Part shown: one piece after another, positions 1-63,069 of the stretch
How the letters are laid out: the number at the start of each line of letters is the position of its first letter
Position numbering within the stretch: position 1 is the first letter of the stretch
Assembly: GCA_951406725.2 (NCBI GenBank)
Contig: OX597818.1
Coordinates: forward strand, 31,992,001 to 32,056,000
Direction of reading: 5' to 3'
Source: Octopus vulgaris
Taxonomy: Eukaryota
DNA: 64,000 bases
The notes under the pieces: generated by a model
Seen by the model: only the letters and a program-made list of their open reading frames with translations
The model's database searches: none
What the model was told of the DNA's origin: nothing
Translations under genes and position numbers: made by a program

Positions 1-6
1 ATATAC

Positions 7-88
<82 letters not shown>

Positions 89-4117: not shown

Positions 4118-5062
4118 TGGAATATCGAGCTCCATCAAATCATCTTTATGTTAGTCACATTGTGTGGCCTTGTGCTTCTGTTATATCAAATTTTCTTCCT
4201 GGTTTCGCTTTTCCACATTTACTAAGTATATTTTAGAAAACATCTTAACTTCCTGATAACAATACATGTCTTCACTTCAAAACATGAAACAAACGGAAGA
4301 CAAAGAATGACAACGAGGCTGGTAAAGATAGGTTTTGAATTTCCGAATTCAATGTGTGTGGGCTAGCATCACTAACTTTGGCTTCCAACAAATACATTGA
4401 AATCGTTTTTGGTTCTGTTCTGTCAACATTGTTAGGGTTCACGATTTAAGAATTGCACTACATTTACTACCATCAGCACTAAATACAAATTATTAATATA
4501 ATTACTAATAATAGGATATTCTTCTTATCTCGAAATGAATTTTTCTAATATTATCTTTGTATAAGATTTTATGTTATCCTAGCTTATTATGGCTGTTGTA
4601 GTTGTATTCCTTGTTTGTTGTAGTGGTGCTATTATATTTGTTCTTGATGTTGGTATGGGTGATGTGATTGATATTGTTATTGAGTTTCAGACTTGGCGTA
4701 TCCATTATTCTTTGTCAGTATGTGTGTGTATACATATGTATATATATATGCACTACGCTTTTGTTTGTCAGTATGTATGTATATATTTAGTTATATATTC
4801 ACACATACAAAACACACACACACACATGCAGAGAGTTGGAGAAGGGAGACGGAAGAATGAAGAAAATTTTATGTCCATCAAGAATTCCATATATACAGCG
4901 CTACATTCAGAGAACATTTCTTGTATTTATATAACCTTATATCTATATTACCACACACGTATACAGACATGCAAAAATGTGTAAACTTCTTACAGGCCAA
5001 GCAAGCGGCTCAGTTTCGAATTTTCGTTGAAGCCAATTCTCCTCACCTATTCATTGACATTA

Positions 5063-5370: not shown

Positions 5371-5529
5371 ATAAAAAATAATTCAATGACACTGCAAAAG
5401 TTCTTGATTAAAGTTTCAATATCTCAACATCTGAATGTCTAAAAATTTTTTTATAGATATCCGAATGTACAATCTTGTGAAAACTCCGTAAGTTTATACA
5501 TATGAATGAAGTTTTGTTTGTAAGTGTAT

Positions 5530-5918
5530 GCTGTGGTAAGTAGCTTGCTTTCCAATCACATGGTTCCGGGTTCAGTCTCACTGCGTGGCACTTTGGGCAA
5601 GAGTCTTCTACTATAGCCTCGGGCCGACCAAAGCCTTGTAAGTTAATTTAGTAGACGGAAACTGAAAGAAACCCATCGTATATATATATATATATATGTA
5701 TATGTTTGTGTGTGTCTATGTTTGTCCCCCCACCAATGTCGTTTGACAACCGATGCTGGTGTGTTTACGTCCCCGTAATCTAGCGGTTCGGGAAAAGAGA
5801 CCGATAGAATAAGTACTAGGCTTACAAAGAATAAGTCCTGGGGTCGATTTGCTCGACTAAAGGCGGTGCTCCAGCATGGCCGCAGCCAAATGACTGAAAC
5901 AAGTGAAAGAATAAAAGA
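5530..5918 (+). mobile_element. SINE family A
   Basis: Near-full match to 3705-4117. Confidence 0.9.
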
Positions 5919-5978
5919 ATGTATATATATATATGTTTGTATGTATATACACATATATGTTTTTGTTTTAATGTACGC

Positions 5979-9760: not shown

Positions 9761-9961
9761 GAGTGTCATGGCCTTTATAGAACTCAGACACAGCGCAGCA
9801 ATATACACCGACAGAGCTTCTACGTGGACGATCGGTTCACCAAAAATAGTTTCCGCTTCATACTCATATCACAACAGCCATCTTAAAAGGGTGAACTGGA
9901 TAATGTGATACTAATCGACGTGAACATATGTAAAGCAAAGGATGGTCACGGCTAAAGTACC

Positions 9962-10372
9962 TATTTCTTTACTACCCACAAGGGGCTAAACACAGAGAGG
10001 ACAAACAAGGACAGACAAACGGATTAAGTCGATTATATCGATCCCAGTGCGTAACTGGTACTTATTTAATCGACCCCGAAAGGATGAAAGGCAAAGTCGA
10101 CCTCGGCGGAATTTGAACTCAGAACGTAACGGCCGACGAAATACCTATTTCTTTATTAACCACAAGGGGCTAAGCACAGAGGGGACAAACATGGACAGAC
10201 ATAGGTATTAAGTCGATTACATCGACCCCAGTGCGTAACTGGTACTTAATTTATCGACCTCGAAAGGATGAAAGGCAAAGTCGACGTCGACGGAATTTAA
10301 ACTCAGAACGTAACGGCCGACGAAATACCGCTAAGCATTTCGCCCGACGTGCTAACGTTTCTGCCAGCTCGC
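9962..10372 (-). mobile_element. SINE family B dimer with 13-bp TSD
   Basis: Two tandem units joined at gacgaaatacctatttc; cggctaaagtacc at 9949-9961 and 10373-10385. Confidence 0.85.
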
Positions 10373-10605
10373 CGGCTAAAGTACCATTAATAATAAATCT
10401 GCTCGATCAGGGCTGTTTTGGGGACTAAACGACAATAGCGCAGTACCCACAGTACAATATGGTCATGAGACGAAACACCAGAATCAATGAAATAACAGTA
10501 ACGAAGCAAAAATTATGTGTTATTCAAATTCTATTTTACATTACCAGAATATAAAGTTGCGTACATCCCAGAAACATCGAACAGAAAATCTCATAAAATT
10601 AATGA

Positions 10606-11016
10606 AGGAGTGGATGTGTGGTAAGTAGCTTGCTTACCAACCACATGGTTCCGGGTTCAGTCCCACTGCGTGGCACCTTGGGCAAGTGTCTTCTACTATA
10701 GCCTCGGGCCGACCAAAGCCTTGTGAGTGGATTTGGTAGACGGAAACTGAAAGAAGCCTATCGTATATATGTATGTATATATATATATATGTATGTGTGT
10801 GTATGTTTGTGTGTCTGTGTTTGTCCCCCTAGCATTGCTTGACAACCGATGCTGGTGTGATTACGTCCCCGTAACTTAGCGGTTCGGCAAAATGGACCGA
10901 TAGAATAAGTACTGGGCTTACAAAGAATAAGTCCCGGGGTCGATTTGCTCGACTAATGGCGGTGTTCCAGCATGGCCGCAGTCAAATGACTGAAACAAGT
11001 AAAAGAGTAAAGAGTA
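10606..11016 (+). mobile_element. SINE family A
   Basis: Full match to family A. Confidence 0.9.
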
Positions 11017-11021
11017 AGCGT

Positions 11022-13739: not shown

Positions 13740-13894
13740 GAGTGGCTGTGTGGTAAGTAGCTTGCTAACCAGCCACATGGTTCCGGGTTCAGTCCCACTG
13801 CGTGGCATCTTGGGCAAGTGTCTTCTGCTATAGCCCCGGGCCGACCAATGCCTTGTGAGTGGATTTGGTAGACGGAAACTGAAAGAAGCCTGTC

Positions 13895-13962
<68 letters not shown>

Positions 13963-14160
13963 CTGTGTTTGTTCCCCTAGCATTGCTTGACAACCGATGC
14001 TGGTGTGTTTACGTCCCCGTCACCTAGCGGTTCGGCAAAAAGAGACCGATAGAATAAGTACTGGGCTTACAAAAAGAATAAGTCCTGGGGTCGAGTTGCT
14101 CGACTAAAGGCGGTGCTCCAGCATGGCCGCAGTCAAATGACTGAAACAAGTAAAAGAGTA
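13740..14160 (+). mobile_element. SINE family A
   Basis: Full match to family A. Confidence 0.9.
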
Positions 14161-18102: not shown

Positions 18103-18540
18103 TCATCATCACCCTAGTCAGGTGTCGCACTATGCGATGCTGTGGTCATCACGATGTCTTGCCACCTTCTCCTGTCCTCTACCCCATGGGCAGCTGAGAA
18201 TAAAGACAATCCTGTGGCTGCGATGTCTTTCAGCCAAGAAGTGGGTGGTCTGCCTTTTTTACGTCTGCCATTCACCTTGCCAGTTATGATCGTTCGCTCC
18301 AGTCCATCCCGACGCATGACGTGGCCAAAGAACCGTAGCTGCCGTTTCATGATGTTTCGCCGAAGCGTCATCTCGCAACCGAGCTTTTCTAGTACCCAGT
18401 TGTTCGTCCTTCTCTCCGTTCATGACGCTCTAAGGATTCTGCGGTAGCACCACATTTCAAAAGCGCTCACTCTTTTCTCGTCTGCCTTCAACATTGTCCA
18501 CGACTCGCAGCCGTACGTTGCAATAGAGAAAGCGGCAGCT
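18103..18540 (-). mobile_element. RTE-clade LINE 3' end, copy 1
   Basis: YGCESWT..AFEMWCYRRIL..LRFFGHVMRRDGLE..GRRKKGRP; (GAT)n tail. Confidence 0.85.
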
Positions 18541-18667: not shown

Positions 18668-19065
18668 TCATCATCATCCTAGTGATGTGTCGCACTATGC
18701 GATGCTGTGGTCATCACGATGTCTTGCCACCTTCTCCTGTCCTCTACCCCATGGGCAGCTGAGAATAAAGACAATCCTGTGGCTGCGATGTCTTTCAGCC
18801 AAGAAGTGGGTGATCTGCCTTTTTTACGTCTGCCATTCACCTTGCCAGTTATGATCGTTCGCCCAAGTCCATCCCGACGCATGACGTGGCCAAAGAACCG
18901 TAGCTGCCGTTTCATGATGTTTCGCCGAAGCGTCATCTCGCAACCGAGCTTTTCTAGTACCCAGTTGTTCGTCCTTCTCTCCGTTCATGACACTCTAAGG
19001 ATTCTGCGGTAGCATCACATTTCAAAAGCGCTCACTCTTTTCTCGTCTGCCTTCAACATTGTCCA
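18668..19065 (-). mobile_element. RTE-clade LINE 3' end, copy 2 (near-identical tandem copy)
   Basis: Only a few substitutions versus 18103-18500; offset 565 bp. Confidence 0.85.
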
Positions 19066-19517
19066 ACATTATCCTACTGCTAAAATAATAGCAAAACAGA
19101 ACAAGAGTACAAACCAGTCTAAAATTACGCACACCTGTATTATGACCGAGTCTAGAACATTTATCCCCATGGACAATAACCCATCCCTCTCCCAACCAAG
19201 GACAATTACTCCTCAGGACAACAACCCCCTAGGACAATTATCGGCTAAGACAATTACCACTAAGCAGTTAACTGCCGGTGTGTACTGTATTTTCCCTGTG
19301 TATAAGCCATTATTTTTCACATGTGAAAATTAGTGTGCGGCTTAGAGAAAGGTCCCCTAATGTGTATATATTTTTATATAAGTTTCAGGAGGAAAATAAT
19401 TTATGTATGGAGATCAAATGAATCCACTGACTTTTTCAGAGAAAATGTCGGTCGGTGAACAACGTGAAAGATTACCGCTACAGTATATATAAAGATTACT
19501 ACTACAGTATATTATGA

Positions 19518-19720
19518 AGGCGGCGAGCTGGCAGAAACGTTAGCACGCCGGGCGAAATGCGTTGCCGTATTTGCCGAGTTCAAATTCCGCCGAGGTCGAC
19601 TTTGCCTTTCATCCTTCCGGGGTCGATAAATTAAGTACCAGTTACGCACTGGGGTCGATATAATCGACTTAATCCGTTTGTCTCCTCTGTGTTTAGCCCC
19701 TTGTGGGCAGTAAAGAAATA
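19518..19720 (+). mobile_element. SINE family B monomer
   Basis: ggcggcgagctggcagaaacgttagc...tttagccccttgtgggcagtaaagaaat. Confidence 0.85.
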
Positions 19721-20354
19721 TATATTGGTGCCCGGAAGAAAACAAAGCATATTTGATTTGTTTTACCTTCATGTTTTTGATAATGTTATTATTAATCTAA
19801 TAAAGACTTTAATATTGACGAAATGTGTTTGTTGTTGATTATAGTTAGACAAAATCATAACAATAACAATACATCTCATAGGGTGGCACTAGAAATTTTA
19901 ATCAAATGCTGGTCCTTGCCACCCAAACATTTGGAAGTTTTAAAAATATATCAAAAGAGAGCAAGCATTACAAGTACTTATAACCCAATCCTTGATGGGT
20001 TTAGCTAAACAGCCATCTAGAAATAAATATTTAGATGCTTCAGCTTCTGTTAATGCCGTAGTTAGCAATTATGAAAACATAAATGTCATACAATATTTGC
20101 GTGGAATCGTGTATAATTTACACATTTAGATGATGATTTAAAACTTCTTAATAATTTCGAAAGGGGGTAGTTAATCAAGATTATGACCATCTTTTCCTTT
20201 TATCTTTTTTATCTATTCAAGTCACTAGACTGCAGCCATATTGAGGTAGCCACCCTGCAAATATTGCTTGGTAATCGAGCTATCACGTAGAGGCCACGTC
20301 GTGTGTATGCATGTGTATCTCCCTGTATATATAACATATACTCATATATAAACA

Positions 20355-20555: not shown

Positions 20556-20724
20556 CACACACAAACACACAAATATATATATATATATATATATAACTAT
20601 ATGTATGCGCGCGTGAGTCATCTAAGAGACCGTAAGTCTGGGAGAAGATGCACTCGTATAACTCACACTGGAGTGGGTTTATTATCCGAATTTTATATTG
20701 TTGAATATCCATCACGACTGATCT

Positions 20725-20804
20725 TACCAATCGGTTTCGCGTAAAGAATACAATGGAGTGTTTGGTAACGATCCAATTATATAACTCTACACTCATCAGA
20801 GATA
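20725..20804 (-). ncRNA. Type I hammerhead ribozyme motif
   Basis: Minus strand: CTGATGA-gtgtagag...ctttacgc-GAAA-ccga-TT-ggta; stem I imperfect. Confidence 0.65.
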
Positions 20805-20866
20805 GCCGATATGGAAGGGAATATGGCCACTGCTCTCTATTATCGGAGGTGGATTAGCACAACCGG

Positions 20867-20945
20867 TACTCTGATGAGCGTAGAGTTATATAAGTGCATT
20901 GTTACCTAACACTCCGTTGTATTCTTTACGCGAAACCGATTAGTA
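20867..20945 (+). ncRNA. Type I hammerhead ribozyme motif with intact catalytic core
   Basis: tact-CTGATGA-gcgtagag...ctttacgc-GAAA-ccga-TT-agta: stem I tact/agta, 8-bp stem II, minimal stem III. Confidence 0.75.
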
Positions 20946-21009
20946 AGACCAGCCGTGATGGATAGTTAATACTGTAAAAATCGGATAATATATATATATA
21001 TATATGTGT

Positions 21010-21340
21010 GTGTTCAGATGAATATATTACTTAAGTTGGGGCACCAGAATTTAGTATGGTATTATCCATACAATTTAAAATAAGATGATTATAATCAAAA
21101 TAAGCGACAAGGATATCCAGAGGTAATGCAGTACGATCGTTTCATAAGACTCCATTTAATTGAACAATGCAAACATTACAATCAATTTAAAATGAAGAGC
21201 AATCTTCAGCTGCACAAAAAACATAGAATTTAATGAAATTTAAAGGACACATTAGTATAATTTTATACAAAATCCCCAAGAGGTCGCATGAAACGATCGT
21301 ACTGCATTACCTCTTGATATCCTTGTTGCTTATTTTGTTC
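21010..21340. mobile_element. Second HHR-bearing element with short inverted terminal segment, between (TA)n tracts
   Basis: 21096-21145 is the reverse complement of 21288-21337 (atgaaacgatcgtactgcattacctc..gatatccttg). Confidence 0.65.
21127..21214 (-). ncRNA. Type I hammerhead ribozyme motif
   Basis: Minus strand: tgcag-CTGAAGA-[long stem II ctcttcattttaaattga/tcaattaaatggag]-GAAA-cgatcg-TA-ctgca; stem III is the palindrome ACGATCGT. Confidence 0.7.
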
Positions 21341-21624
21341 ATATATATATATATATACGCACATGCACTACAAGCTATTCTTCAAACAAGCGCAGCTTCT
21401 CTATATCTTGCTGGAGAAGTTAGAAACTCTACTCGAAAAATTGAAGAAACATGTGATTATTCTAGTATCTGAGATCCCAGATGCACCAGCATGATGGCAA
21501 AGAGCGCCAACTAAGGATAGTAGTATCGAGCGCCATCTTTCTCAAAAGATAAAAGAGAACAAAGCAAAATAATGAAAACATCAAAAGGAGAGCTGTATTA
21601 GCAATAACATAGGTGGTATCACAC

Positions 21625-22361
21625 GAGGAAGGTGTGCAGCGTGCGATCGTCGCATTGACAATGTCAGAAAGTTGAGCGAGAAATCTGTATCAATTGTTTC
21701 CAAATGCTTGGCGATGTCTGCTCAAAGGCCTACGCAAAGTATTCAAAAAGTTTTCCATTGTTCTCGACACAATCAAGATGATGGGCAAGTGAAATCCGAT
21801 TGTCTTTTTGGTCAGTTGAAAGCAGTTTTGGCACAAAGTTGGTAGACACACGTTTCATACCCAAATCTTCAGTGATAATGGACTGAACTGAACCATAATA
21901 AATCTGCACATCCTCTGATAAGTCACGGGTGGTGATTCGACGATTTCCTCTCACAGCTGTACACACATCTGCGATGCTATTCTTAGTTCTGCTGCTTACC
22001 GGGTCTCTCAGAACGTTCGTCAATATCGTCCTTTCTTCGACCATCTTGGAAACGTCTGAACCACTCGTACACTTGTGTGCGGCTCGTACACTCCTCTCCG
22101 TACACTTTCTGTGACTTTGTGAAAGCCTCTGAGCCGGTATCGCTATGACTGCTTTCTCTGTCATAGTCAATGCGTTGATCCCACGCTACACACCTTCCTT
22201 CCAAGCGGTGTTGTAAACAGCGGAAGTGAGCTAGAACGTTAAAACTTAGTCCATATGCACAAAAGAGATCCAAGGTCAATCTCTGCCGAGCAGCTTTACT
22301 CTGCATGCTTTAGCTTCGTTACCATGGAAACAGTTCGGATACTTTTTGATCAGACCTTGTA
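21625..22361 (-). mobile_element. Non-autonomous mariner derivative with long inverted arms (one end truncated)
   Basis: KVYGEECTSRTQVYEWFRRF HTH and NRRIT.R.LSEDVQI motifs; homologous to 44214-45113; terminus gatcagaccttg-ta. Confidence 0.8.
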
Positions 22362-25030: not shown

Positions 25031-25367
25031 TACCGTTACTGCAACTTGGAATTTCGAGAGGAATTCTGTTAGTCGATGCATTTGTTTCTTTCAAGCGCTG
25101 TTTACCTGTCTAAGAACGCTCGCCTTCAATAAATGGCAAAATATTTTCTGAGAGCTCAGGAATTTCCTGGGCCCAGGTACAATGTATTGGCACTAATACT
25201 TCTACTAGTACCAGTTGTATACTGTTTGCTTGTTTCTCTTGGCTGTGTTCCGTATGAAAAAAATTTCCATCGCTTTTCACCCTAAGTCTTTAATATTTGC
25301 TATCTGATTAAGGCGGTATTTATTCTGTCTTTAAGTTCTGAATTCAAATTCCGCCGAGGTCAACATA

Positions 25368-26035
25368 TTCCCCTCTCAGATTCACACACATATTGCAGCG
25401 ATTCTTCAGTTTTTTTTTAAGCCCTGTAAAAGAAATCGGAGTGTTGGTCTTCCAACCAGGCCATTCACGATAACCTTAAAACCAAGAACTTTTCAGCACC
25501 TTCTCATGGACGACGTTTTGACTATTTGGTATTAGTTTCAGTCCCCAATGAAGAATCTTATAAACAGACAAAATTCTGAAACCAGGTTTCTATTCTTGAC
25601 CGTCGTTTATGCAGGTACGATCGTATGAAATATGAAACATTTTAAAAGCTTTTATATGGCTGCACCACCTGCTAAGAAAATGAACCATATCTCACCTAGA
25701 TCATAACCGACTGATTTTATTAAATGACATTTTAGCTATTTGCTTTAGAGTTGATTGTGTCTTAGTAAACGACGTAATGGTCACAGATGGAATGCCCATG
25801 ATCATAGGTATCCTCAAATTGTATTACATTGAGTGTAGACAACTACAAGAACGAATGTATATTTGTGAGTGTGTGTGTGAGTGTGTAAAATAAAATCTGC
25901 AGATAAGTTTCTAGGTTTAAGGGTGTCGCGAAAGGCCTTGTTGGAAGCCTAACCTTCAGAGTGTTTTTTTACAGGGCTTAGAAAAACTGAAAAACCGCTG
26001 CAATATGTGTGAGAATATGAGAGGAATATAATTAA
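25368..26035. mobile_element. Two oppositely oriented mariner 3'-end remnants (25368-25592 minus; 25898-26035 plus)
   Basis: cagggcttagaaaaactgaaaaaccgctgcaatatgtgtgagaatatgagagg translates to GLEKLKNRCNMCENMRG, like the mariner C-terminus; third copy at 43862-44045. Confidence 0.6.
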
Positions 26036-29462: not shown

Positions 29463-29700
29463 GTTCATACATGCATTTATATGTACTAGCGTATGAATAT
29501 ATATATTTCTGTAATTTGGTTGCTTCATTTTGCCGAAGAAACACACAATGGTTGTATTTCACTTAAACTAATTAGATATTTAAGTTATTTTGTCATTTCT
29601 ATCAGTGTAACTACTCCTCTATTTCTTCCATCTTGATGCATCTAGTTATCTTTTTCGTATCTATTAATTCTTCTTCGATACAGTTAACCTCCTATTTCTT

Positions 29701-29929
29701 ATTTCTTTACTGCCCACGAGGGGCTACACATAGAGGGGACAAACAAGAAAAGACAGACGGATTAAGTTGATTACATCGAACCCAGTACGTAACTGGTACT
29801 TATTTAATCGACCCCGAAAGGATAAAAGGTAAAGTCGACCTAGGCGCAATTTGAACTTAGAACGTAGCGGCAGACGAAATACCGCTATGCATTTCACCCG
29901 GCAGCCACCTTTAGTTAGAAATAGGAGTG
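29701..29929 (-). mobile_element. SINE family B monomer with TSD
   Basis: Family B sequence; aacctcctatttct at 29687-29700 and 29930-29943. Confidence 0.8.
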
Positions 29930-32333: not shown

Positions 32334-32686
32334 ATACATATATCTTAACTATCTTCGATTTTTTATAAGATGCATTGCTTTTAAATCAAAAGAATTTTTT
32401 TTTTTTAAACGAGATAGACAGTTTATTTAGAATGATAATTTTTAAAACAAGGAGTTACACACAAAGTTATCTTGCAGACATCACACATGTATCTACTTTC
32501 GCTTCGAATCTTGTTTCCTTTAGCGTCTCTCTTCTCTGCGCATTTTGCAGAGATAACTTTGTGAGTAACTCCTTGTTTTAAAAATCATCATTCTAAATAA
32601 ACTGCCTATCTCATTAAAAAAAAAATTCCTTTGATTTAAAAGCAATGAATCTTATAAAAAATCGAAGATGGTTAAGTTATATGTAT
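32334..32686. repeat. AT-rich inverted repeat, ~143-bp arms, ~65-bp spacer
   Basis: tttttaaaacaaggagttacacacaaagttatc vs gataactttgtgagtaactccttgttttaaaaa; tcttcgattttttataagat vs atcttataaaaaatcgaaga. Confidence 0.85.
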
Positions 32687-36025: not shown

Positions 36026-36644
36026 TTTATAAGGTGGCGAGCCTTACGGCATTTCGTCCGTCTTTATGTTATGAGTTCAATTTCCACAAGGTCGTCTTTG
36101 CATTTTATCCTCTTGGGGTCGATATATTCAGTACCACTTAAGCACTGGGGGTCAATGTAATCGACTAGCACCTTCCCTGCGGAATTTGAACACAGAATAT
36201 AAAGACGGACGAATTTTTTTTTTTTTTTTGCCCGGTGTGCTAACGATGCTGTCAACTCGCTGGTTTTATCATACTAATTAAAATCAAACAAGCAATAATG
36301 ATGTGTTTTGTAATCTACAATGTACTACTCGTGTGTAAATTTAAATGCTTTTAGTATTTTTTATTCATTGTGGTGGCTGTTTTGTCAGTGGGATATGTGA
36401 ATAACTAACAGAAGTACTCTTCCTAAGGGAGAAAGCTATCCCGTAGATTTCCTCTTATAAAGCTTCCTGTAATTGCCGTTGGTGATGGCTGCACTTTTAA
36501 GAGAATGACAAATAACAAGTTTTGAAACTATATTTAGTAAAACTAAAGATAAATTAATTAATAACCATATTGACGATGAAGTTTATGATAACCAAGCTAA
36601 CAATATTCAATGATGCATTTTTCTATGCTTCCTCCATTCATGTT

Positions 36645-37047
36645 ACTCTTCTACTCTTTTACTTGTTTCAGTCATTTGACTGGCCATGCTGGAGCACTGC
36701 CTTTAGTCGAGCAAATCGCCCCCAGGACTTATTGTTTGTCAGCCTAGTACTTATTCTATCGGTCTCTTTTGCAGAACCGCTAGGTTACGGGCACGTAAAC
36801 ACACCAGCATCGGTTGTCAAGCGATGTTGGCGGGACAAACACAGACACACAAACATATATACACACATACATACACACATATATATATATATGTACATAT
36901 ATACGATGGGCTTCTTTCAGTTTCCGTCTACCAAATCCACTAACAAGGCTTTGGTTGGCCCGAGGCTTTAGTAGAAGATACTTGCACAGGGTGCCACGCA
37001 GTGGGACTGAACCCGGGACCATGTGGCTGGTAAACAAGCTACTTACC
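36645..37047 (-). mobile_element. SINE family A
   Basis: Reverse-complement match to family A. Confidence 0.9.
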
Positions 37048-37204
37048 ACACAGCCACTCATGCGCCTGTCAGCAATAATAATATAAGAGGAATATAAGAA
37101 AATTCTTTAAATATCGCAAAAAGGGAATATGGAGGAGTAATAGAAAGGAAGCGGAACAAGAGTTTATAAGACCTACAGAGAATTGAAGATAAGTTTAATG
37201 TTGG

Positions 37205-37364
37205 AAGTGTGGTAAGTAGCTTGCTTACGAGCCACATGGTTCCGTGTTCAGTCCCACTGCATGGCACCTTGGGCAAGTGTCTTCTACTATAGCCTCGGGC
37301 CGACCAAAGCCTTGTGAGTGGATTTGGTAGACGGAAACTGAGAGAAGCCCGTCGTATATACGTA

Positions 37365-37433
<69 letters not shown>

Positions 37434-37643
37434 ATGTGTGTGTGTGTGTGTGTGTTTGTTTGTCCTCCCAACATCGCTTGACAACTGATACCGGTGTGTT
37501 TACGTCCCCGTAACTTAGCGGTTCGGCAAAAGAGACCGATAGAATAAGTACTAGGCTTACAAACAATAAGTCCTGGGGTCAATTTGCTCGACTAAAGGCA
37601 GTGCTCCAGCATGGCCGCAGTCAACCGACTGAAACAAATAACA
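37205..37643 (+). mobile_element. SINE family A
   Basis: Match to family A; head-to-head with 36645-37047. Confidence 0.9.
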
Positions 37644-38779
37644 GAGTGAAAGTGTAAAAGAGAACTTCAGCTCAGCCTTGATTGAGCAAACCTTTGATTT
37701 AAGGCAATCCGTCCATACCCGTCACTTCATTCTCCTAACTAGAGTGCACCCAGGGTAACATTATCGAAACTGTCATCTATTGCACTAGGGAGTGATTTAA
37801 GAGAGAAGTGATTGTTATTTTTACCCAATCAAGCGACCGCGTATAGGCTCCATAGTTAAGAGAAGTAATTGGACAAGAGAATGAAAAACAGGAGTAAGAC
37901 TAGCAACTAGATCGAAGAAATAGAAGGAGAGAGAAAGTGACAGAGAATGACGCACGAATGGTTATGTAATTTGCGGACAGCATATAATCATCTTAGTGTT
38001 GATTGCACAAAATGTCATTTACGTAACAGTTGTATGCCTGCCTTTGAGAGCGTGAAGAATATGAATGACCGTGTTTCGTCTACGTGAGAATATCTGATGC
38101 ACGTTCACACACATCTGTCTCTCCCTATATATAAATATATAGAGAGAGACACAGAAAGAAATTGATGAAATGGAGATAGACAGGAAAGAGAAAAATTTCG
38201 TAACACATCTAAAATAAATTCGGAAGTTATTAATAAACCTTCTGAAAAAAGATACATGTCCTACAACCAAAGGAACCATACATGCTTTCTTAGGCAGACA
38301 GCTATAGAAGAAGACTAAAAGATTAATGACTTATATATGATTAATTAATTCGTATACTTTGTGATAAGTAACGTTCAATAACTTACGGTTCAATAATTTC
38401 AATAATAACATCTCAAAATGATTGATTCTGGATAGTGAGTGATATGTAATTAGGTTAACTGGCAGAGCATGTGTGGTTCTGATTGAATCAAAATTAATTG
38501 TAATTTCTCATAGTAGAAACTGTGATCCTTTCTGATGCTGAACTTTGCGTGTATCTTTCTCATGCTTACATTTTCATAAGACTTCGACAGATAGACATTA
38601 TTATAGGTATGTATATGTACATATACATCATATACATATTAAGTATAATTATGTATGCAAGTATGTATCTATGTATACCCCCCCCCCCACATATACATAT
38701 GTATATATGCATTTGTATATGTATATATATACATATATATGTGTGTGTATATATATCTGCATGCATACATACTATCATA

Positions 38780-41269: not shown

Positions 41270-43148
41270 TGAACTCAAATGCTCCCATGAAAAAGAGAGG
41301 GCAGAAAGGATTGTCAAAAATATTACGACAAACTCTAACTATAGATATACAAAAGAATCTTCTTCAGTACGGTACAAAATAGAGCCACTACTGGAAGAAA
41401 ATGGTTCACCGACTGCTGACCCCCAGAGGATCAATGAAATTCTGAATGTGCAATACAGGAATTCTTTCACCTCTCCACTGGGACACTTTCAAGTAGTTAT
41501 GCTTAATGAGTTCTTTAGCCCCATAGATCTACACAACAAAATGGTAATTATTGACTGCACCAGCATAGAGGAAACTGATGTGATATCAGTCATTGACAAA
41601 ATGAGTTCAAACCCAGCAACAGGCCCTGATAGATTTCCAGCAATCCTCCTAAAGAAATGCCAAGGGGTTCTAGCAAGACCATTTCAGATTCTCTTCCAGA
41701 GCTTCCTCACAACAAGGATACCTCCCAAAAAGTTAAAGGAAGGCATTATATACCCTATTCATAAAGTAGCAGAGAAGATGCTAACTTCCTATATCAGCAA
41801 AGTCATGGAGCCCATTGTCAGGAAGAAAGTAATTGCCTTCCTTGATAATAATGATTTGCTTCCTGACACACAGCATGGCTTTCGCTCAGGCAACCTGCCT
41901 TACACAGCTTTTGCAATACTATGACTGGGTGTTGAAACAATTAATGAATCGCTCAAATGTAGATGTGATATATCTCAACTTTAGACTCGGCATAACTGGA
42001 AAAATCGGAGAGTTGTTGCATGACTTCTTAAAAGACAGAAGCCAGGCTGTAGCAGCCAAAGGAAACCTATCCACGGAGATATTAATAGAAAGTGGAGTAC
42101 CTCAGGGAACTGTATTGGGGCCACTGCTGTTCATGGTGGCGCTTTCAGACATGCTATATGTTACACAAATAGCTACACTTATTATGCCGACGACACAAAA
42201 GTAGTACAAGTAGTCAGAACCTTCTGATGCAAATCTTCTACAGAAATGGGCTGAGGGCAACATGCAATTTAATGCAGGTAAACTCTAAGCCGTCCGCTAT
42301 TAGCTAATTGGTGGTCAGAATTCAGAACAACGATACTTTGGACCAAAAAGAGCGGCAATCCTAGAGACACATACGGTGAGTGATCTTGGGATTGATATGA
42401 GCAACGATGCCTCATTTCACATGCATGTCACCAAGATGGAGGCAGTGTGCAGGCGAATGACCGGGTGGATTCTGGGAACCTTCAGAAGAAGGGACCAGGA
42501 AACTATGCTGATCCTATGGAAGACATTTGTCCTCAGCCATCTGGACTACTGCTCTCAACTGTGGTCACCCTTACACCGTTGGCTTAATAGCAGTACTTGA
42601 AGTGGTTCAGCGATACTACACTTGGAAGATTGCATCAATGAAACAGCTGAGCTGCGGGGAGAGACTGAAAGAGCTACGAATCCACACCCTGGAGCGAAGA
42701 CGGGAGATGTATGCAGTTATATATGTAGGGAATATACTGCGGGGGTGGGGGGCTGGCACTAAGCTTTGGAATTGAGAGTCATACCAGACCTCGAAATGGA
42801 TGTCACTGTACTGTTCCAAAAGTCTCTGCTGTCTCATCTAAGGCGAGGAACATGTACTGCAATAGCTTGGGATTCAAAGGCCCACATCTATTTAATTCCT
42901 TGCCAAAACATCTGAGGGATTTCCATGGAGTGGGAGTAGATGTTTTCAAGAAACAACTTGACCTCTTGCTATCCAAGATCCCAGATGGACCAATATCAAG
43001 ATAGGAAACTCAAAAGAGAGCAACGGTATCGAACTACCTCTTCCACCAAAGGTCAATCTCGTAGAATTGGACAATTAACACGTGATTACACGGGCGGTGC
43101 CCCAGCATGGCCGCAGCCACAGGGCTGAAACATATAAAAGATAAAAGA
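41270..43148 (+). mobile_element. 5'-truncated decayed LINE (CR1/L2-group reverse transcriptase) with intact 3' end
   Basis: Frameshifted ORFs with ATGPDRFPAILLK, QHGFRSG, GVPQGTVLGPLLF, YADD (tatgccgacgac ~42183), SHLDYCSQLWSP, LERRRE; 3' tail at 43093-43148. Confidence 0.85.
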
Positions 43149-43861
43149 ATATATATGAAATTTATTAGTGAGAGATTATCCACCCGGGCAAAATATTTTG
43201 TAAGCTCTTTGTTGGTACACCAGGATGGCATTATTGTTTAGATTAGTAAATAATTCCCCGTATTCTTGTGGCATGGATGGAAGTCCATCACCATTCTATA
43301 TTGTAAATCCACGGTTGCGTTCCAGTTATAGGCAAGACATGAATAAAGGTCATTGGCCATTATGTATGCCTTGTATTGTATGTATATGCGAGCGCACGCG
43401 CACACACACACACACACACACACATAATCACAATTTAGATTAGTTGAAATGTTTGTCACATATCGCAACTGCTAAAGGCAAGGACACTACAGTTACCGTG
43501 GGGAAAAATCTCTTATAGTAAAAAGGTGTGAAAACACCCCGTTCGTTCAGTGTCGCCCTCTCTCGGGAATCTCAGACATCGATGTTTCGAGTTTACACAT
43601 ATGCTTTCGGTGCGAAGGCTTTTTTTTTTTATATACGGCGCCGTTTTTACAATCCTGTAAATAATAATAATGGTTTTTTTTTTATATAAGCCTAATGCTT
43701 ATGGCGATCGCCGTGCAATGATTAAGGAAAATTGTCTAATACGCGCGGGAATCGCCATAAGCTTTAGGCTTATATAAAAAGCCATTATTATATACTTACA
43801 TATATTGCAAGATTCTTGATGTGAATTCGTGAGTTGAGACAGATATTGTTGTAATATACGA

Positions 43862-44213: not shown

Positions 44214-45113
44214 TACGGAGTATCTGAGGTATATAAGTATCCGGACTGTTGCACTAGTAACAAAGCTAAAGCACGCAGAGTAAGGCCGCTTGGCAAAGAT
44301 TGACCTTAGATACTGCTGTGCATGTGCATTAAGTTTTAACGTTCCAGCTCACTTCCGCTGTTTACACCAGTGCTTGGAATGAAGATGTGTTGCGTGTGAT
44401 CGTTGCATTGACCATGGCAGAGAAAGTTTTCATGTCGATACCGGCTCAGACGCCAACGCAAAGTTGCAGAAAGTGTATGGAGAAGAGTGTATGAGCCGCA
44501 CACAAGTGTACGAGTGGTTCAGACATTTCCGAGATTGCCGAAAAAATGATGATATTGACGAACGTACTCGGACACCCGCAACCAGCAGAACTGAGAATAG
44601 CATCACAGATATGTGTACAACTGTGAGAGGAAATCGTCGAATCACCATTCGTGAGTTGTCAGAGGATGTGCAGATTAGTTACCGTTCAGTTCAGTCCATT
44701 ATCACTGAAGATTTGTGAGCGAGACGCGTGTCTGCCAAGTTTGTGCCAAAACTACTTCAAGGTAACCAAAAAGACACTTGGGTTTCAGTTGCACAAGATT
44801 TCCTTGAATGTGTTGAGAACGATGAAATTTTTTGAAAACTTTGCGTAGGCCTCTGAACAGGTATCGTCATGCTTTTGACAAAATTTGATGCAGATTCTCA
44901 GCTCAACTTTCTGTCATTGTCAATGCGACGATCACACGCCACGCACCTTCCTTCCAAGCACTGTTGTATACAGAGGAAGTGAGTTAGAACGTTAAAACTT
45001 AGTGCACATGCACAGCAGTGTTCATTGTCAATCTGTGCCAAGCGGCTTTCCCTATCGTGCTTTAGCTTCGTTACTATGGCAACAGTTCGGATATTTATTG
45101 ATCAGAGCACGTA
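44214..45113 (+). mobile_element. ~900-bp non-autonomous mariner derivative with ~200-280 bp inverted arms
   Basis: 44236-44428 is the reverse complement of 44904-45096; centre encodes KVYGEECMSRTQVYEWFRHF and RRITIRELSEDVQIS HTH motifs; TA at ends. Confidence 0.85.
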
Positions 45114-45336
45114 CTTTATCGTGTATAGTTACAGCAGCACAATGTTAGGGCTATGTTTGTTGCAGTGGAAATTATATTTATTTATGTAACACAAAGAACT
45201 TTTATTTTCTTCGATATGTAAACATCATTGTTATACCAGAGGATAAAATTTATACATTGAAGTAGATGGATTATTTTCACTAGCACCAATGTCAAACCCA
45301 TTTTCCACATACTCATTTCATACAGTTGCAATATAT

Positions 45337-45567
45337 ATTTCTTTACTACCCACAAGGGGCTAAACACAGAGGGGACAAACAAGGACAGACAAACGGATTA
45401 AGTCGATTATATCGACCCCGGTGTGTAACTGGTACTTAATTTATCGATCCCGAAAGGATGAAAGGCAAAGTCGACCTCGGCGGAACTTGAACTCAGATCG
45501 TAACAGCAGACGAAATACGGCTACGCATTTCGCCCGGCGTGCTAATGTTTCTGCCAGCTCGCCGCCT
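45337..45567 (-). mobile_element. SINE family B monomer with TSD
   Basis: atacagtt(g/a)caatata at 45320-45335 and 45571-45586. Confidence 0.85.
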
Positions 45568-46651
45568 TTAATACAGTTACAATATATTTTAGCAAAAATT
45601 CTGTTGATGTTGCTTAGCTCCAGCATGGACTTGATTAAAGGCATTCAAGTCTCGGTCATTCAGTAGTGTGCTTTCAGATATTTATGGCTGTATTGTGCAA
45701 TATGTTACATAGGATGGTGATGGTGGTGTTGGTGGGAGATATTCGAGTACAGAAGATATGACAGAGATTTCTTGCAGCTCCATTGTCAACCACGAAGCTC
45801 CTTGTAAACATATTCATGTATGCGCATGTATGAAGCACACGAATTACAGAAATATCCGTGGGTGAATATATTGTAGATATACGCAGACGTACATTCTATT
45901 TTCTGAAGTTATGTTTCCATGTCTGACCAATTACATACCCGTGTTCGTATCCATATAAATGTATACATCAGTAGAATTGTGTGCATGAGTGCGAGCGTGA
46001 GTTTGTATGTGTTCGTGTGAGTGTGCGTGAGTATGTAATAAGAGTATGTGTGTGTGTGTGTGTGTTGCTTGCATGATCGTATGCTCTTCATTCGTTCATA
46101 ATAAAAGTGCTATTTACAGTTAAAAGAGAAGCTGGGATGATTACGAATTACTAGAGACTATGTAAATAGGTGGAAGGATTTTCACTCAGAAATCGTATAA
46201 TTTAGTCTATTGGAAAGTAATTTTTAGCTGAAATCGTAATCTAAATGTCGAAACTGCCATTTCTTGAATAATTCCTTGATTCACGTATAGAATCCGATTA
46301 TCAGGTCGTGTACAAGGATTTGAATAGGAGGTAGATAATAGGATATATTCTGTAGAAATCTTCAATAGTTTTGTTAAAACATCGGATAACCTGGTGAAGC
46401 TACGCTCTTCGGGGAAATTTTCCGCTTGGTAACATGTCACTGGGAATTGCATACTTAGAAGAAGCGTTAAAAACGTAATAACGCTTAATAGACGAGATTT
46501 GTTCAGCGTTCAGTAAACTAATTCGTGAAGACCTGAAATTTCAACGGAAGTGACGCCATTTTTATTAATCTCTAAGATAAGTAGTAATTCTATGATGTTC
46601 CAGTCTCTAACTAAATGTTTTATATGTAATTTAAAGCGGTGTCGTTGCTGC

Positions 46652-49409: not shown

Positions 49410-49548
49410 ATATGCTTGCTAACCAACCACATTGTTCTGGGTTCATCCCCACTGCGTCGCATCTAGGGCACGTGTCTTCTACTATAGCCTCGGGCCGACC
49501 AAAAATTTGTGAGTGGATATGGTAGACGGAAACTGAAAGAAGCTCCTC

Positions 49549-49608
<60 letters not shown>

Positions 49609-49835
49609 GTATGTATGTATGTATATGTTTCTGTGTCTGTGTTTGTCCCCCACTATCGCTTGACAACCAGTGTTTGTGTGCTTACGTCCCCGTAACCCAG
49701 CAGTTCGGAAAAAAAGACCGATAGAATAAGTACTAGGCTTACAAGGAATAAGTCCTGGGGTCGATTTGTTCGACTAAAGGCTGTGCCCCAGCACAGCCGC
49801 AATCAAATGACTGAAACAAATAAGGGAATAAAAGA
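49410..49835 (+). mobile_element. SINE family A
   Basis: Match to family A, slightly 5'-truncated. Confidence 0.85.
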
Positions 49836-50839
49836 ATATATATACATGTATGCTTGTGTATTTCTTTTAGATTTTTTATAGCCTCTCTATGAATCCTAAA
49901 TTTTCATAGATCATTGCATTGTATCTCAACGATACTTTTTAAAATCTTTCTAATGCGATGTACACTTTCACACATCTATTGGGATGCTATATAATTTGAA
50001 GTCACCTGTGACTTAACGTGTCAGTAAAACAAAAGGCTAAGTTAGTTGTCATGTCACGTATCACTTCCACCAATAATGTCGCTGTCTGTAGATTTAGTTC
50101 TTTCCGCGCATAAGAAAATGGTCCAGGTTTTCTGATATCAACCTCGATGCCACTTGGCTAGCAAGTGTATTTTTCTATGGGTTTTTTTTTTATCTTTGAA
50201 TACTGAACTTTACTTTTCTAAGCTCAATTAAAGTTTATGAACTTTAACCTTTCGTGTTTACTCCCTAAATTCATCGAAATTTCGGATGCCGCTTGATGTC
50301 AAATTTCTTATTTACAGCAACACTTTTACTGCCATTTAGATTTATCTGAATTCTGAATTGTGGAGTAGAAAGAAGTAACCTTCTCTTTATGTGTCTTGAA
50401 ATTTCTTCACTGTGCTTTCTGTTTTCTTATATCGGCGAAATAGTGTCGGATGTAATTCTGTTCTTTCCCTACATATTTAGTACTGAATACTTCATTTACA
50501 GAAGCTATAAAGCAGTAATCCTGTACTGAGGTCGACAGCATCACCTAATGCCCTCGCTTCAAAACTGCTGGCAGTCTAAGCTCGGAAACCATCGACATCA
50601 CCATTTGGCGACGAGTGAGCAGAATCGTTAGCAGGCTGCAGGAAAATCTTTAGTAGCTTATTGTCTGTCTTTACGTTCTGAGTTCAAATTTCGCCGAGGT
50701 CTACTTAGTCTTTCAGCCTTTCGGGGGCCGGTAAAAATAGGCACCAGTCGATGTTATCGACTAAGCTCCTCCCTCAAAACTGATGGCTTTGCACCGAGAT
50801 TTCAAATCATATTTACCTTAGCAATGCTGATTGCGCAGG

Positions 50840-51453
50840 AAGGCGGTGAGCTGACCGAAACGTTAGCACGCCGGGTGAAATTCTTAGCGGTATTTCGTCT
50901 GCCACTACGTTCTGAGTTCAAATTCCACCGAGGTCGACTTTGCCTTTCATCCTTTCGGGGTCGATTAAATAAGTACCAGTTATGCACTGGGGTCGTTATA
51001 ATCGACTTAATCCGTTTGTCTGTCCTTGTTTGTCCCTTCTGTGTTTAGCCTCTTGAGGGTAGTGAAGAAATAGGTATTTCGTCTGCCGCTACGTTCTGAG
51101 TTCAAATTCCCCCGAGGTCGACTTTGCATTTCATCTTTTCGGGGTCGATTAAATAAGTACCAGTTACGCACTGGAGTCGATATAATCGACTTAATCCGTT
51201 TTTCTGTCCTTGTTTGTCCCCTCTGTGCATGGCCCCTTGTGGGCAATAAAGAAATAAGAAATATTAGCACGCCGGGCGAAATGCTTAGCGATATTTCGTC
51301 TGTCTTTACGTTCTGAGTTCAAATTCCGCCGAGGTCGACTTTACCTCTCATCCTTTCGTCGTCGATAAATTAAGTACGAGTTGCGTACTGGGTCGATCTC
51401 ATCGACTGGCCCCCTTCTCAAAAATTTCGGGCTTTGTACCTAGAGTAGAAAAG
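50840..51453 (+). mobile_element. SINE family B trimer (B + B + B2 tail) with 17-bp TSD
   Basis: aat(g/a)ctgattgcgcagg at 50823-50839 and 51454-51470; three tandem units. A separate older B2 copy lies at 50607-50810. Confidence 0.85.
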
Positions 51454-56031: not shown

Positions 56032-56051
56032 TATATATATATATATATATA

Positions 56052-56260
56052 CTCTTTTACTTGTTTCAGTCATTTGATGTGGCCATGCTGGAGCATCGCC
56101 TTTAGTCGAGCAAATCGATCCCAGAACTTAATCTTTGTAAGCCTAGTACTTATTCTATCGGTCTCTTCTACTGAACTACTGGGTTACAGGGATGTAAACA
56201 CACCAGCATCGGTTGACAAGCGATGTTGGGTGTGACAAACACAGAGACACAAACGCATAC
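56052..56260 (-). mobile_element. SINE family A 3' half
   Basis: Tail and body match up to the internal microsatellite. Confidence 0.85.
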
Positions 56261-56307
56261 ATATATATATACATACATACATACATACATATATATATAT
56301 ATATATT

Positions 56308-57222: not shown

Positions 57223-57271
<49 letters not shown>

Positions 57272-57419
57272 GCATATAAATACAGTGTACATTTAAATGC
57301 ATGAGGTATCCATCATTAGGACTCCTTGCATGCTAGAGAGAACAGTTAAATACCCAACCACTTATAGGAAAAAAATTTCGAAGGAAATGAAAAATAAAAA
57401 AAACATTTACCATCTAACT

Positions 57420-57490
57420 CCTGGACCAATGGTTTCAGACTTTTTCTTAGCAAATAAAACAATTTGCTAGGTGAAGTTTCCTTCAGCAGG
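57420..57490 (-). ncRNA. Type I hammerhead ribozyme motif, GUC cleavage triplet
   Basis: Minus strand: cctg-CTGAAGG-aaactt..tagcaaat..atttgcta..aagtct-GAAA-ccattgg-TC-cagg. Confidence 0.7.
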
Positions 57491-57839
57491 TGCACCTTAG
57501 ATTAAATATATATACACGAGGGAATACAGTATATGCACCGTGCTTATACATTCTAATTTTTCAAATCTACCACGCAAGCGCTGCTCCTTCTCGGCAGTAA
57601 ATAAAAATGCCGGCTTTTCAATTCGAAAATTATCCAGAAAAAAATTATCAATAGTTAATAATATCGAAGGGTAATCAGAAATATTAGAAATTTACATTAC
57701 CAGTGGCCTAGCGTGTAAAAATTTAGTCAATAGACTATATATTATTCATATAAATACAGTGTACATTTAAGCACACAAGCGACATCCATCAGGACATATA
57801 CTGGATTGTCTCCTGTATATATATTCAATCTAAGGTGTA

Positions 57840-57912
57840 CCTGTTGAAGAAGACTTTGCCTAGCAAATTATTTTTTATTTACTTAAAAAAAGTCTGAAAC
57901 CATTGGTCCAGG
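57840..57912 (+). ncRNA. Type I hammerhead ribozyme motif, GUC cleavage triplet
   Basis: cctg-TTGAAGA-agacttt...aaagtct-GAAA-ccattgg-TC-cagg; consensus with the other copy restores CTGAAGA. Confidence 0.7.
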
Positions 57913-58344
57913 AGTTAGATGGTAAATGTTTTTATTTTTCATTCCCTTCGAAATTTTGTCCCCAATTGTGGTTTGGAATTTAACTGTTCTCTCTAGCGTG
58001 CAAGGAGTCCTAACGATGGCTGCCACTCATGTGCCTAAATGTACACGGTATTTATATGAATAATATATAGTCTATTGACTAAATTTTTACACGCTAGGCC
58101 ACTGGTAATGGAAATTTCCAATATTTCTGATTACCCTTTGATGTTATTAATTATATCTATGCATATATACATACATATATCTTCATACTTACATATATAT
58201 GTATATATGCATATATATATATATATACATATATACATGCACATATATATACATACATATATATATATGCATATATATATCTATATAATTTATATTATAC
58301 GATTGAACGCCACGCATCCATTTCTAAATAAGTTTATCTAAGTG

Positions 58345-61915: not shown

Positions 61916-62419
61916 CTCAGCAGCTGCATTATTATTATAATGAAGGCGGCGAGGTGGTCGAATCATTAGTGCTTCTGTGACAAATTACTTAGAGGTATTT
62001 CTTCGAACCCTTTATGGTGTGACAGGTATATACGACTTCAACATGTAAAGGATGTAAAATAAAACTAGCATTGGCAAGATATGAATTCAGAAAGCAAAGG
62101 AGTATCAAGAACAATCCCTTCAATTCGCTGCTCATTTTTCTGTTTAAGTAATAATAATAGTTTCTAAGACGGTGAAACCTTTTATAAGTTTGAAATCGAT
62201 CGGTCGATTAAATCGAATTCAGTATTTCATTGGTATACATTTTATCGCTGCGCGGAGAAATGAAAGGCAAAAATCAACACCGAAGAGATATAAACATTTG
62301 TATCTTTGGCGTTGAGGCATTCATTATGACCATATATTTTTCATATCTGAAAACCCAAACTTTTATCATTGATTGTTAAATATTCTTGGCAAAAATGTTT
62401 CTTATTTTCTTTAGAGGTT

Positions 62420-62924
<505 letters not shown>

Positions 62925-63069
62925 TAGTATTTTGTAGATTTTATGTTTAACCGAAATGTTTCTATTTCACAGAGCAAAAAAGGAAATATATATAAGCAAA
63001 GCTTCTAGTTTATATTGATATGGCAAAAGCAATCTAAATTAAAATCTTACAACTTCAGTACAAATTTTA

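What the first reader, a model, noticed from the sequence alone, without database searches (positions are those of the whole stretch)
57273..58152. ~474-nt HHR unit present as a circularly permuted 1.1-mer plus an inverted partial copy
Seen: the minus strand reads end-of-A, B, X, A (24-bp direct repeat 474 bp apart at 57273 and 57747) and is joined to a plus-strand A-B copy. Each A has a hammerhead with a GUC triplet, 4-bp stem I (cctg/cagg) and stem III cca/tgg. The two copies carry different single core mutations (CTGAAGG vs TTGAAGA), so their consensus is canonical CTGAAGA. Inference: a greater-than-unit-length permuted copy is what reverse transcription of a circular or tandem RNA would produce. 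This predicts a ~474-nt self-cleaved monomer or circRNA (retrozyme-like); the inverted segment is typical of PLE insertions.
Basis: partly seen in the sequence, partly recalled or inferred. Interest (0 to 1): 0.85.

Follow-up and report, generated by a model that had tools for sequence, protein, structure and literature searches.

The report
Aged two-armed hammerhead retroelement insertion
This is an old, mutated copy of a many-copy non-coding repeat that carries a predicted self-cutting RNA motif and sits as two back-to-back arms, the pattern known from Penelope-type jumping genes, whose enzyme likely pasted it in; it is a new member of a known kind.

Summary
Observation confirmed. A 523-nt minus-strand arm (1.10 units of 474 nt) is joined head-to-head to a 360-nt plus-strand arm, between (TA)n-rich flanks. 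Each arm holds a type I hammerhead with a long stem II and a short, near-palindromic stem III. Contigs from four DNA runs (three organism labels) show a many-copy family with a cyclically closed unit. Its majority core is CUGAAGA: the left arm's G9 is nearly private to this locus, while the right arm's U3 is a common family variant. Other copies also have head-to-head junctions, and an unrelated hammerhead element at 20680-20990 repeats the geometry. This is the published Penelope-like-element footprint (partial tandem, inverted 5'-truncated copy, tail), so a PLE-mobilised non-LTR retrozyme is the best reading. A circle is not required: one uncleaved 1.5-mer transcript holds both arms, and the unit does not fold unusually as a ring. 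Randomly permuted ends are not supported, but 3' ends of other copies could not be mapped. New details: a candidate 75-nt retained intron 13 nt after the cut site, and arm starts clustered just past one full turn, which hints at a ring. Expression and cleavage are untested. Interest 0.3.

The parts
57261..57272 (.). Left (TA)n flank; resembles the first 12 nt of B, so a possible priming microhomology that makes the left end ambiguous
   Evidence: BLAST 57261-57296 vs 57736-57771, 34 of 36 with one gap
57273..57795 (-). Long arm, 523 nt = 1.10 units: end of A, B, X, A
57747..57795 (-). Short 5'-truncated upstream copy of the end of A (partial tandem, pLTR-like); its first 24 bp on the + strand repeat 57273-57296 exactly
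57651..57746 (-). Segment B, left copy
   Evidence: 91 of 96 identical to 58059-58154
57536..57650 (-). Segment X, single in this locus, present in the family and contiguous with B and A; non-coding
   Evidence: contigs span B-X-A, e.g. 57379-57663 and 57506-57710 (table 8); no Pfam hit for the 61-aa frame
57273..57535 (-). Segment A, left copy
   Evidence: 227 matches, 33 mismatches, 3 gaps against the right copy
57412..57502 (-). Type I hammerhead, left copy: core CTGAAGG 57486-57480, GAAA 57436-57433, GUC 57426-57424; predicted cut between 57424 and 57423; damaged at position 9 and in stem II
   Evidence: relaxed descriptor; family majority letters (table 3)
57333..57410 (-). Candidate spliceosomal intron, left copy (78 nt; the family majority lacks 3 nt here); splicing untested
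   Evidence: GTAAAT donor, TTTAAC branch-like motif, pyrimidine tract, TAG; pattern in 22 of 2000 shuffles
57795..58154 (+). Short arm, 360 nt: A (57795-58058) plus B (58059-58154) as a 96-nt tail
57816..57823 (+). TATA-like run just ahead of the hammerhead; weak in so TA-rich a genome, untested
   Evidence: seen in the sequence
57828..57920 (+). Type I hammerhead, right copy: outer helix 57828-33/57915-20, stem I 57840-43/57909-12, core TTGAAGA 57844-50, stem II 57851-95, GAAA 57896-99, GUC 57906-08; predicted cut after 57908
   Evidence: strict descriptor, 0 hits in 12 shuffles; constrained fold -13.8 vs MFE -17.0 kcal/mol
57922..57996 (+). Candidate spliceosomal intron, right copy (75 nt), starting 13 nt after the predicted cut; splicing untested
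58155..58260 (.). Right TA-rich microsatellite flank

Best explanation
The locus is an aged, two-armed copy of a many-copy, non-coding 474-nt hammerhead repeat, likely pasted into a (TA)n tract by the RT/endonuclease of a Penelope-like element, likely from an uncleaved longer-than-unit transcript. Shown: two head-to-head arms, both running through an intact cut site; a cyclically closed unit; a family majority core CUGAAGA; similar junctions in other copies. Inferred steps: (1) a tandem or partial-tandem source copy is transcribed, and the candidate intron is kept; (2) the PLE protein nicks both strands of a TA-rich target, and each 3' end primes a cDNA at a preferred internal site, here 150-162 and about 246 nt past the cut site, which leaves a tail on one arm only; (3) both cDNAs stop early and are joined at their 5'-truncation points (57795); (4) the arms then decayed by a few percent each. 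The family ribozyme, with its weak stem III, would cut mainly as a dimer in tandem RNA and could release a monomer or circle of about 470 nt. This locus has just one hammerhead per strand and a broken left core, so it is probably dead. I put the class (PLE-mobilised retrozyme) at about 0.85 and the whole statement, including a linear template, at 0.5.
For: Geometry matches the published PLE layout: partial tandem, adjacent inverted 5'-truncated copy, tail at one end, microsatellite bias (PMC8557442; PMC3846280). Hammerhead pairs 100-700 bp apart on opposite strands, with helix II of 7-8 bp, are reported for PLEs (PMC4209133); the cores here are 358 bp apart. A PLE protein nicks and extends both strands, starts at two fixed internal RNA sites and uses uncleaved RNA (PMC11167929). 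Family data: 1396-3083 contigs per run; of 15 joints shown (52 in all), 7 change strand, and 5 of these are demonstrably head-to-head, at single-locus depth. An unrelated element at 20680-20990 has the same two-armed layout, with the short arm ending in (TA)n and the other running about 75 nt further. The candidate 75-nt intron matches the size of the retained 75-bp intron in the Penelope pLTR. At 14 of 16 positions where the left A differs from the family majority, the right A has the majority letter, as independent decay predicts. The unit's circular fold is unremarkable: z -1.8, 3 of 60 shuffles as good, paired fraction 0.61 equal to shuffles.
Against: No PLE ORF was linked to the family: no GIY-YIG hit among 109 window frames, and the one RT remnant (41833-42201) was not classified. 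The 84-96-nt tail is longer than the published 30-40 bp. 3' ends of other copies could not be mapped: table 6 is empty, and all 24 loose ends shown (of 1012) resemble family sequence. No reliable target-site duplication. The long arm stops 48-60 nt past one full turn, and 5 of 6 other junctions have an arm start in the same 49-nt window; a ring explains this more naturally than a linear RNA. The arms differ by 12.7% in A but 5.2% in B. The intron pattern was written after seeing the sequence. The first pair of stem II is A-U, or G-C flanked by two extra bases, whereas G10.1-C11.1 is described as highly conserved.
Confidence: 0.5

Rival explanations
1. Same class and enzyme, but the template is the re-closed circular monomer of about 470 nt. 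RT primes at a preferred site, goes once round and stalls shortly after meeting its own RNA-DNA hybrid, giving the 1.1-mer; a second primer makes the short arm.
For: The long arm ends 48-60 nt past one full turn. In other copies arm starts lie at monomer positions 106-145 in 5 of 6 joints, or 4 of 5 if two are one locus; a uniform model gives about 0.05 per joint. Both arms cross an intact cut site. Mussel, coral and axolotl retrozymes make circles (PMC7229834). Earlier AI notes on other families of this genome say the same (unchecked, not independent evidence).
Against: The windows were chosen after seeing the data, detection favours the best-matching segment, and 37 joints are hidden. The lengths of the other arms are unknown, so twin priming on a linear RNA also fits them. 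The unit is not highly self-paired. A real intron kept in DNA copies points to unspliced precursor. Hammerhead cleavage was dispensable for PLE insertion in vitro.
Confidence: 0.33
2. One reading: a circle or multimer copied from arbitrary points, so that copies are freely permuted.
For: The unit is cyclically closed, and loose ends behind 57791 continue as A in 14-26 contigs in 3 of 4 runs, so there is no single fixed 5' end. The two outer ends of this locus differ by 84-96 nt.
Against: Junction positions cluster. The left end sits on the unit's TA run, matching the target, and the second element's short arm ends the same way. Fixed internal starts are shown for a PLE in vitro.
Confidence: 0.07
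3. Two separate insertions, or a local inversion or duplication of one copy, brought together by chance.
For: The arms differ by 12.7% in A, and only the right arm has the common U3 variant. The junction has just 1 nt of microhomology.
Against: Head-to-head junctions recur in other copies and in an unrelated element in the same window. Both arms have drifted from the family majority at their own sites. The family occurs only once in 64 kb, so two chance neighbours are unlikely.
Confidence: 0.07
4. The hammerhead is a chance pattern in an ordinary AT-rich repeat.
For: No Rfam match; MFE folds do not single out the hammerhead.
Against: Strict descriptor 0 hits in 12 shuffles. The family majority restores the core and stem II pairing (79-95% of depth at 57478). 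No variant is listed at 57419-57445, although 59 of 99 rows are hidden.
Confidence: 0.03

Closest known systems
Metazoan non-LTR retrozymes (PMC7229834: passages and sections 14, 17 read; bioRxiv 10.64898/2026.07.22.740005: parts 1-3 of 5 read)
   Same: Non-coding unit with one type I hammerhead, GC 32% (published under 45%), many copies, cyclically closed unit, proposed PLE mobilisation. Molluscan precedent: mussel, 350-390 bp.
   Different: Unit of 474 nt is above the 170-400 nt given for invertebrate circles, though within the 51-972 bp range of Li et al. This locus has no two full units in tandem, so it fails Li's 'active' definition. It is not highly self-paired. An inverted arm is not mentioned in PMC7229834 ('inverted': 0 occurrences). 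It carries a candidate intron. Circles are not shown.
EN+ Penelope-like element insertions and pLTRs (PMC8557442 and PMC3846280: passages; PMC4209133 and PMC11167929: parts 1-2 of 4 each)
   Same: Partial tandem, head-to-head inverted 5'-truncated copy, one-sided tail, TA-rich target, hammerhead with long helix II and short palindromic helix III, opposite-strand hammerhead pairs, retained intron of about 75 nt near the hammerhead.
   Different: No ORF, RT or GIY-YIG in the unit. The tail is 84-96 nt rather than 30-40. The intron lies downstream of the cut site, whereas in D. virilis it ends at the 5' side of helix I. Stem I has an outer helix, unlike minimal PLE hammerheads. No parent PLE was identified.
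Non-autonomous Chlamys elements such as MRC1 (PMC8557442, passage)
   Same: Non-coding PLE derivatives that form pLTRs and head-to-tail copies.
   Different: Algal, and most Chlamys elements lack canonical hammerheads.

Membership tests
Type I hammerhead ribozyme | Core CUGAnGA, GAAA and NUH in type I order | tested here: met
   Family majority CUGAAGA, GAAA, GUC; each arm here has one core change
Type I hammerhead ribozyme | Stems I, II and III can form | tested here: met
   Strict descriptor met by the right copy; constrained fold 3.2 kcal/mol above MFE; stem III only 3 bp
Type I hammerhead ribozyme | Covariation of the stems | not tested
   No alignable set of full copies was available
Type I hammerhead ribozyme | Self-cleavage | not testable with these tools
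   Bench assay needed
Non-LTR retrozyme | Non-coding unit with one type I hammerhead, low GC | tested here: met
   Stops in all three sense frames of both arms, GC 0.32; no Pfam hit for the longest X frame
Non-LTR retrozyme | Multi-copy in the genome | tested here: met
   1396-3083 contigs per run in 4 of 4 runs; copy number itself not measured
Non-LTR retrozyme | Head-to-tail tandems with two or more hammerheads | tested here: inconclusive
   Not in this locus (1.10 units); the unit is cyclically closed in the family, but no listed contig spans a whole unit
Non-LTR retrozyme | Expressed as linear and circular monomers | not tested
   No RNA data were examined
Non-LTR retrozyme | Highly self-paired circle | tested here: inconclusive
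   z -1.8, paired fraction equal to shuffles, but measured on an aged copy
PLE-type insertion | Partial tandem plus inverted 5'-truncated copy, head-to-head | tested here: met
   recurs in other copies and at 20680-20990
PLE-type insertion | One-sided tail of 30-40 bp, fixed 3' ends | tested here: inconclusive
   One-sided extension present but 84-96 nt long; other copies' 3' ends not mappable
PLE-type insertion | Microsatellite or AT-rich target | tested here: met
   Both flanks are TA-rich, but such tracts are very common in this window
PLE-type insertion | Short target-site duplication | tested here: inconclusive
   The candidate 10-mer occurs 5 times on the + strand, 4 of them in the right flank
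Autonomous PLE | RT plus GIY-YIG ORF | tested here: not met

The most novel reading that the evidence does not exclude
The family is an intron-bearing retrozyme: a miniature Penelope promoter-ribozyme-intron cassette whose unspliced RNA is cut, closed into a ring of about 470 nt and copied by a PLE enzyme from both nicked strands. The RT stalls just after one full turn, so the clustered arm starts are a genomic record of circle-templated retrotransposition, a step proposed for retrozymes (PMC4209133, PMC7229834) and not shown in the papers I read. Splicing would give a second circle of about 400 nt that never returns to the genome.
Probability: 0.17. Interest if true: 0.62.

Novelty: new member of a known kind. 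Interest (0 to 1): 0.3.

Why it matters
As one aged copy it matters little: retrozymes and the PLE footprint are both published, and this scan already holds many notes on younger two-armed hammerhead families in the same genome. Its use is as one more data point that links retrozymes to PLE machinery by insertion anatomy rather than by sequence likeness alone. Two details could make an open question testable, namely whether the template is a ring or an uncleaved precursor: the stop just past one turn, and a candidate intron that gives a spliced versus unspliced marker. I found no paper describing cephalopod retrozymes or an intron in a non-LTR retrozyme (searches; open-licence library only). 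The supplement of the O. vulgaris repeat paper (PMC13282606) was listed but not opened, and curated repeat libraries may already hold this family.

Tried and rejected
No whole genome is held for this window, so genome-wide end mapping was not possible. Exact-pattern scans found 0 loci: metagenome contigs twice, viral contigs, prokaryote genomes. The run search listed 24 runs, 20 holding part of the stretch, from 11 studies and 5 organism labels, with a top share of 0.48; no RNA holder listed. That blank is no evidence either way, and RNA was not examined. Rfam gave nothing relevant. MFE z-scores were uninformative. The target-site duplication was rejected as uninformative. Summed contig depth falls about 50-fold from the A/B junction (57724-57761) to X (57591-57647) in all four runs, the shape expected from preferred 3' ends with 5' truncation; the tool states that contig depth cannot rank parts, so I do not count it. 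Standard L1-style twin priming does not fit this locus: the arms overlap by about 144 nt or leave a 212-nt gap. A same-template test on the three end-of-A copies was inconclusive: they are 84-87% alike, but several differences look like CpG decay. One strand-changing joint (57445/57830) was dropped because it maps into the inverted arm included in the laid stretch. Coding potential was rejected (107 of 120 filtered frames plus 2 others were scanned). Look-ups of earlier findings by sequence and by seven words gave nothing, and the one 'relative' is unrelated. The host taxon was not tested: 'octopus' comes from earlier AI notes and from my own recall of such microsatellite-rich DNA.

Full report
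Setting. The window is AT-rich, microsatellite-dense, animal-type DNA full of dispersed repeats. It holds mariner and RT remnants but no convincing host-gene frame among the 109 frames scanned. No whole genome is held. Earlier AI notes call the genome octopus; I did not test that.

Observation. Self-BLAST confirms the layout. A minus-strand arm runs 57795 to 57273 (523 nt): a 49-nt end of A, then B (57746-57651), X (57650-57536) and A (57535-57273). It is joined head-to-head, sharing one base at 57795, to a plus-strand arm of A (57795-58058) and B (58059-58154). The exact 24-bp direct repeat at 57273 and 57747 fixes the unit at 474 nt. The A copies differ at 33 of 260 aligned positions with 3 gaps, and the B copies at 5 of 96. 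Both outer ends merge into TA-rich flanks. The left flank resembles the first 12 nt of B (34 of 36 with one gap), so that end is ambiguous. A 10-nt candidate target-site duplication is too common locally to count.

Hammerhead. Each A holds a type I motif: a 4-bp stem I extended by a 6-bp outer helix across a 6x2 loop, the core, a long stem II (7 bp plus an outer hairpin), GAAA, a 3-bp near-palindromic stem III and GUC. My strict descriptor finds two sites in 64 kb (plus 57844, minus 20799) and none in 12 block shuffles. The left copy passes only a relaxed version, with 5 window hits and 0.58 per shuffle. Thermodynamic folding and Rfam give no support; the constrained fold lies 3.2 kcal/mol above the MFE. 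A weak palindromic stem III is typical of metazoan hammerheads that cut as dimers (PMC4209133), so a tandem RNA would be needed for efficient cleavage (inference).

Family evidence. Twenty of 24 listed runs, from 11 studies and 5 organism labels, hold part of the stretch. I laid four of them (X1, X2, X4, X8; kind DNA by guess or unlabelled) on the long arm at 80% likeness. This gave 3083, 2459, 2786 and 1396 contigs, with all 30 bins covered. Contigs link B to X to A, and loose ends behind 57791 continue as A, so the unit is cyclically closed; no listed contig spans a whole unit. At core position 9 the family reads A in 98.3-99.6% of depth. The remainder (64, 14, 51, 3) is about one locus' depth per run, which suggests this insertion is present in all four runs (inference). 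The stem II mismatch is repaired in 79-95%. The right arm's U3 is a family variant at 4-46%. At 14 of 16 shown positions where the left A departs from the majority, the right A has the majority letter (40 of 99 variant rows were shown). Both arms are decayed copies.

Junctions. Of 52 joints, 15 were shown and 7 of those change strand. I dropped one that maps into the inverted arm. Five of the remaining six have one arm starting at 57752-57791 and the other at 57551-57641. The side lengths force a head-to-head orientation, as in this locus (57795/57535). On the monomer, counted from the cut site, those starts are 106-145 and 256-346, against 102 and 362 here. A uniform model gives about 0.05 per joint. 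However, the windows are post hoc, detection favours the best-matching segment, and two joints may be one locus. 3' ends of other copies could not be read. An unrelated hammerhead element at 20680-20990, with perfect cores at plus 20871 and minus 20799, repeats the geometry, including a short arm ending in (TA)n and a longer arm with about 75 nt more.

Extra anatomy. Thirteen bases after the cut site a GTAAAT donor opens a 75-nt (right) or 78-nt (left) stretch ending in a branch-like motif, a pyrimidine tract and TAG. A pattern written after seeing it hits 22 of 2000 unit shuffles and 2 of 270 window tiles; I did not check which tiles. Penelope's pLTR holds a retained 75-bp intron (PMC8557442). 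No ORF follows the junction in either arm. As a circle the unit folds at z -1.8, with the same paired fraction as shuffles.

Mechanism. Both arms cross an intact GUC site, so a cleaved linear monomer cannot be the template without a template jump; it was uncleaved or re-closed. One transcript from a cut site to position 246 of the next unit (about 720 nt) contains both arms, so a ring is not required. The layout is the published PLE footprint: partial tandem, inverted 5'-truncated copy, one-sided tail and microsatellite bias, with opposite-strand hammerhead pairs already noted. A purified PLE protein nicks and extends both strands, starts at two fixed internal RNA sites and uses uncleaved RNA. 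I therefore infer two primed cDNAs, starting near positions 150-162 and 246, joined at their truncation points. The main sign in favour of a ring is that the long arm stops just past one turn, as a stall at its own hybrid would give. I put the class at about 0.85, a linear template at 0.5 and a ring at 0.33.

Comparison and novelty. It works like, and probably is, a PLE-mobilised non-LTR retrozyme. The tandem, expression and cleavage criteria are open, and it is not an autonomous PLE. Earlier notes on this genome describe many younger two-armed families of 356-535 nt with fixed start points. They agree with my reading, but they are unchecked AI notes and none was matched to this family by sequence. 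Papers seen: bioRxiv 10.64898/2026.07.22.740005, parts 1-3 of 5; PMC11167929 and PMC4209133, parts 1-2 of 4; PMC7229834, passages and sections 14 and 17; PMC8557442, PMC3846280 and PMC13282606, passages. No supplement was opened; those may hold related consensus sequences. Verdict: real, well explained, a new member of a known kind; interest 0.3.

Noticed in passing
window 20600-20990: Second, sequence-unrelated two-armed hammerhead element with perfect CUGAUGA cores on both strands (plus 20871, minus 20799), long stem II, GUA triplet and (TA)n flanks; better preserved in the core than the finding itself.
   Followed up: partly
window 426-1356, 2571-2814, 9955-10377, 19510-19735, 29691-29902, 45330-45573, 50840-51407: Dispersed family of partial tandems with a period of about 184-217 bp. 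No CUGAnGA or UUGAnGA core in the two copies scanned (380-1420, 2450-3520); a permuted or scrambled ribozyme was not tested.
   Followed up: partly
window 2812-3419, 32334-32686, 43656-43800, 21090-21343, 25365-26029: Several further self-inverted or inverted-arm repeats (77-93% identity); may be more head-to-head insertions or MITEs.
   Followed up: no
window 21626-22344 and 44233-45119: Two related mariner remnants (HTH_48 above Pfam cut-off); the second has inverted arms.
   Followed up: no
window 41833-42201 (frames from 40604): Degenerate reverse transcriptase fragment (RVT_1, E 3e-4, below cut-off); clade not determined.
   Followed up: no
window 1-311, 3700-4120, 5520-5940, 10600-11017, 13740-14160, 36640-37660, 49414-49840, 56050-56306, 62418-62930: Very abundant SINE-like repeat of about 410 bp, with an inverted pair at 36643-37657.
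   Followed up: no
window 18103-18500 and 18668-19065: Recent 398-bp direct duplication, 98% identical, 565 bp apart.
   Followed up: no
window 57417-57418: The family is polymorphic (13-34% of depth) just 3' of stem I, at the edge of the internal loop, while the neighbouring core and stem III show no listed variant.
   Followed up: no
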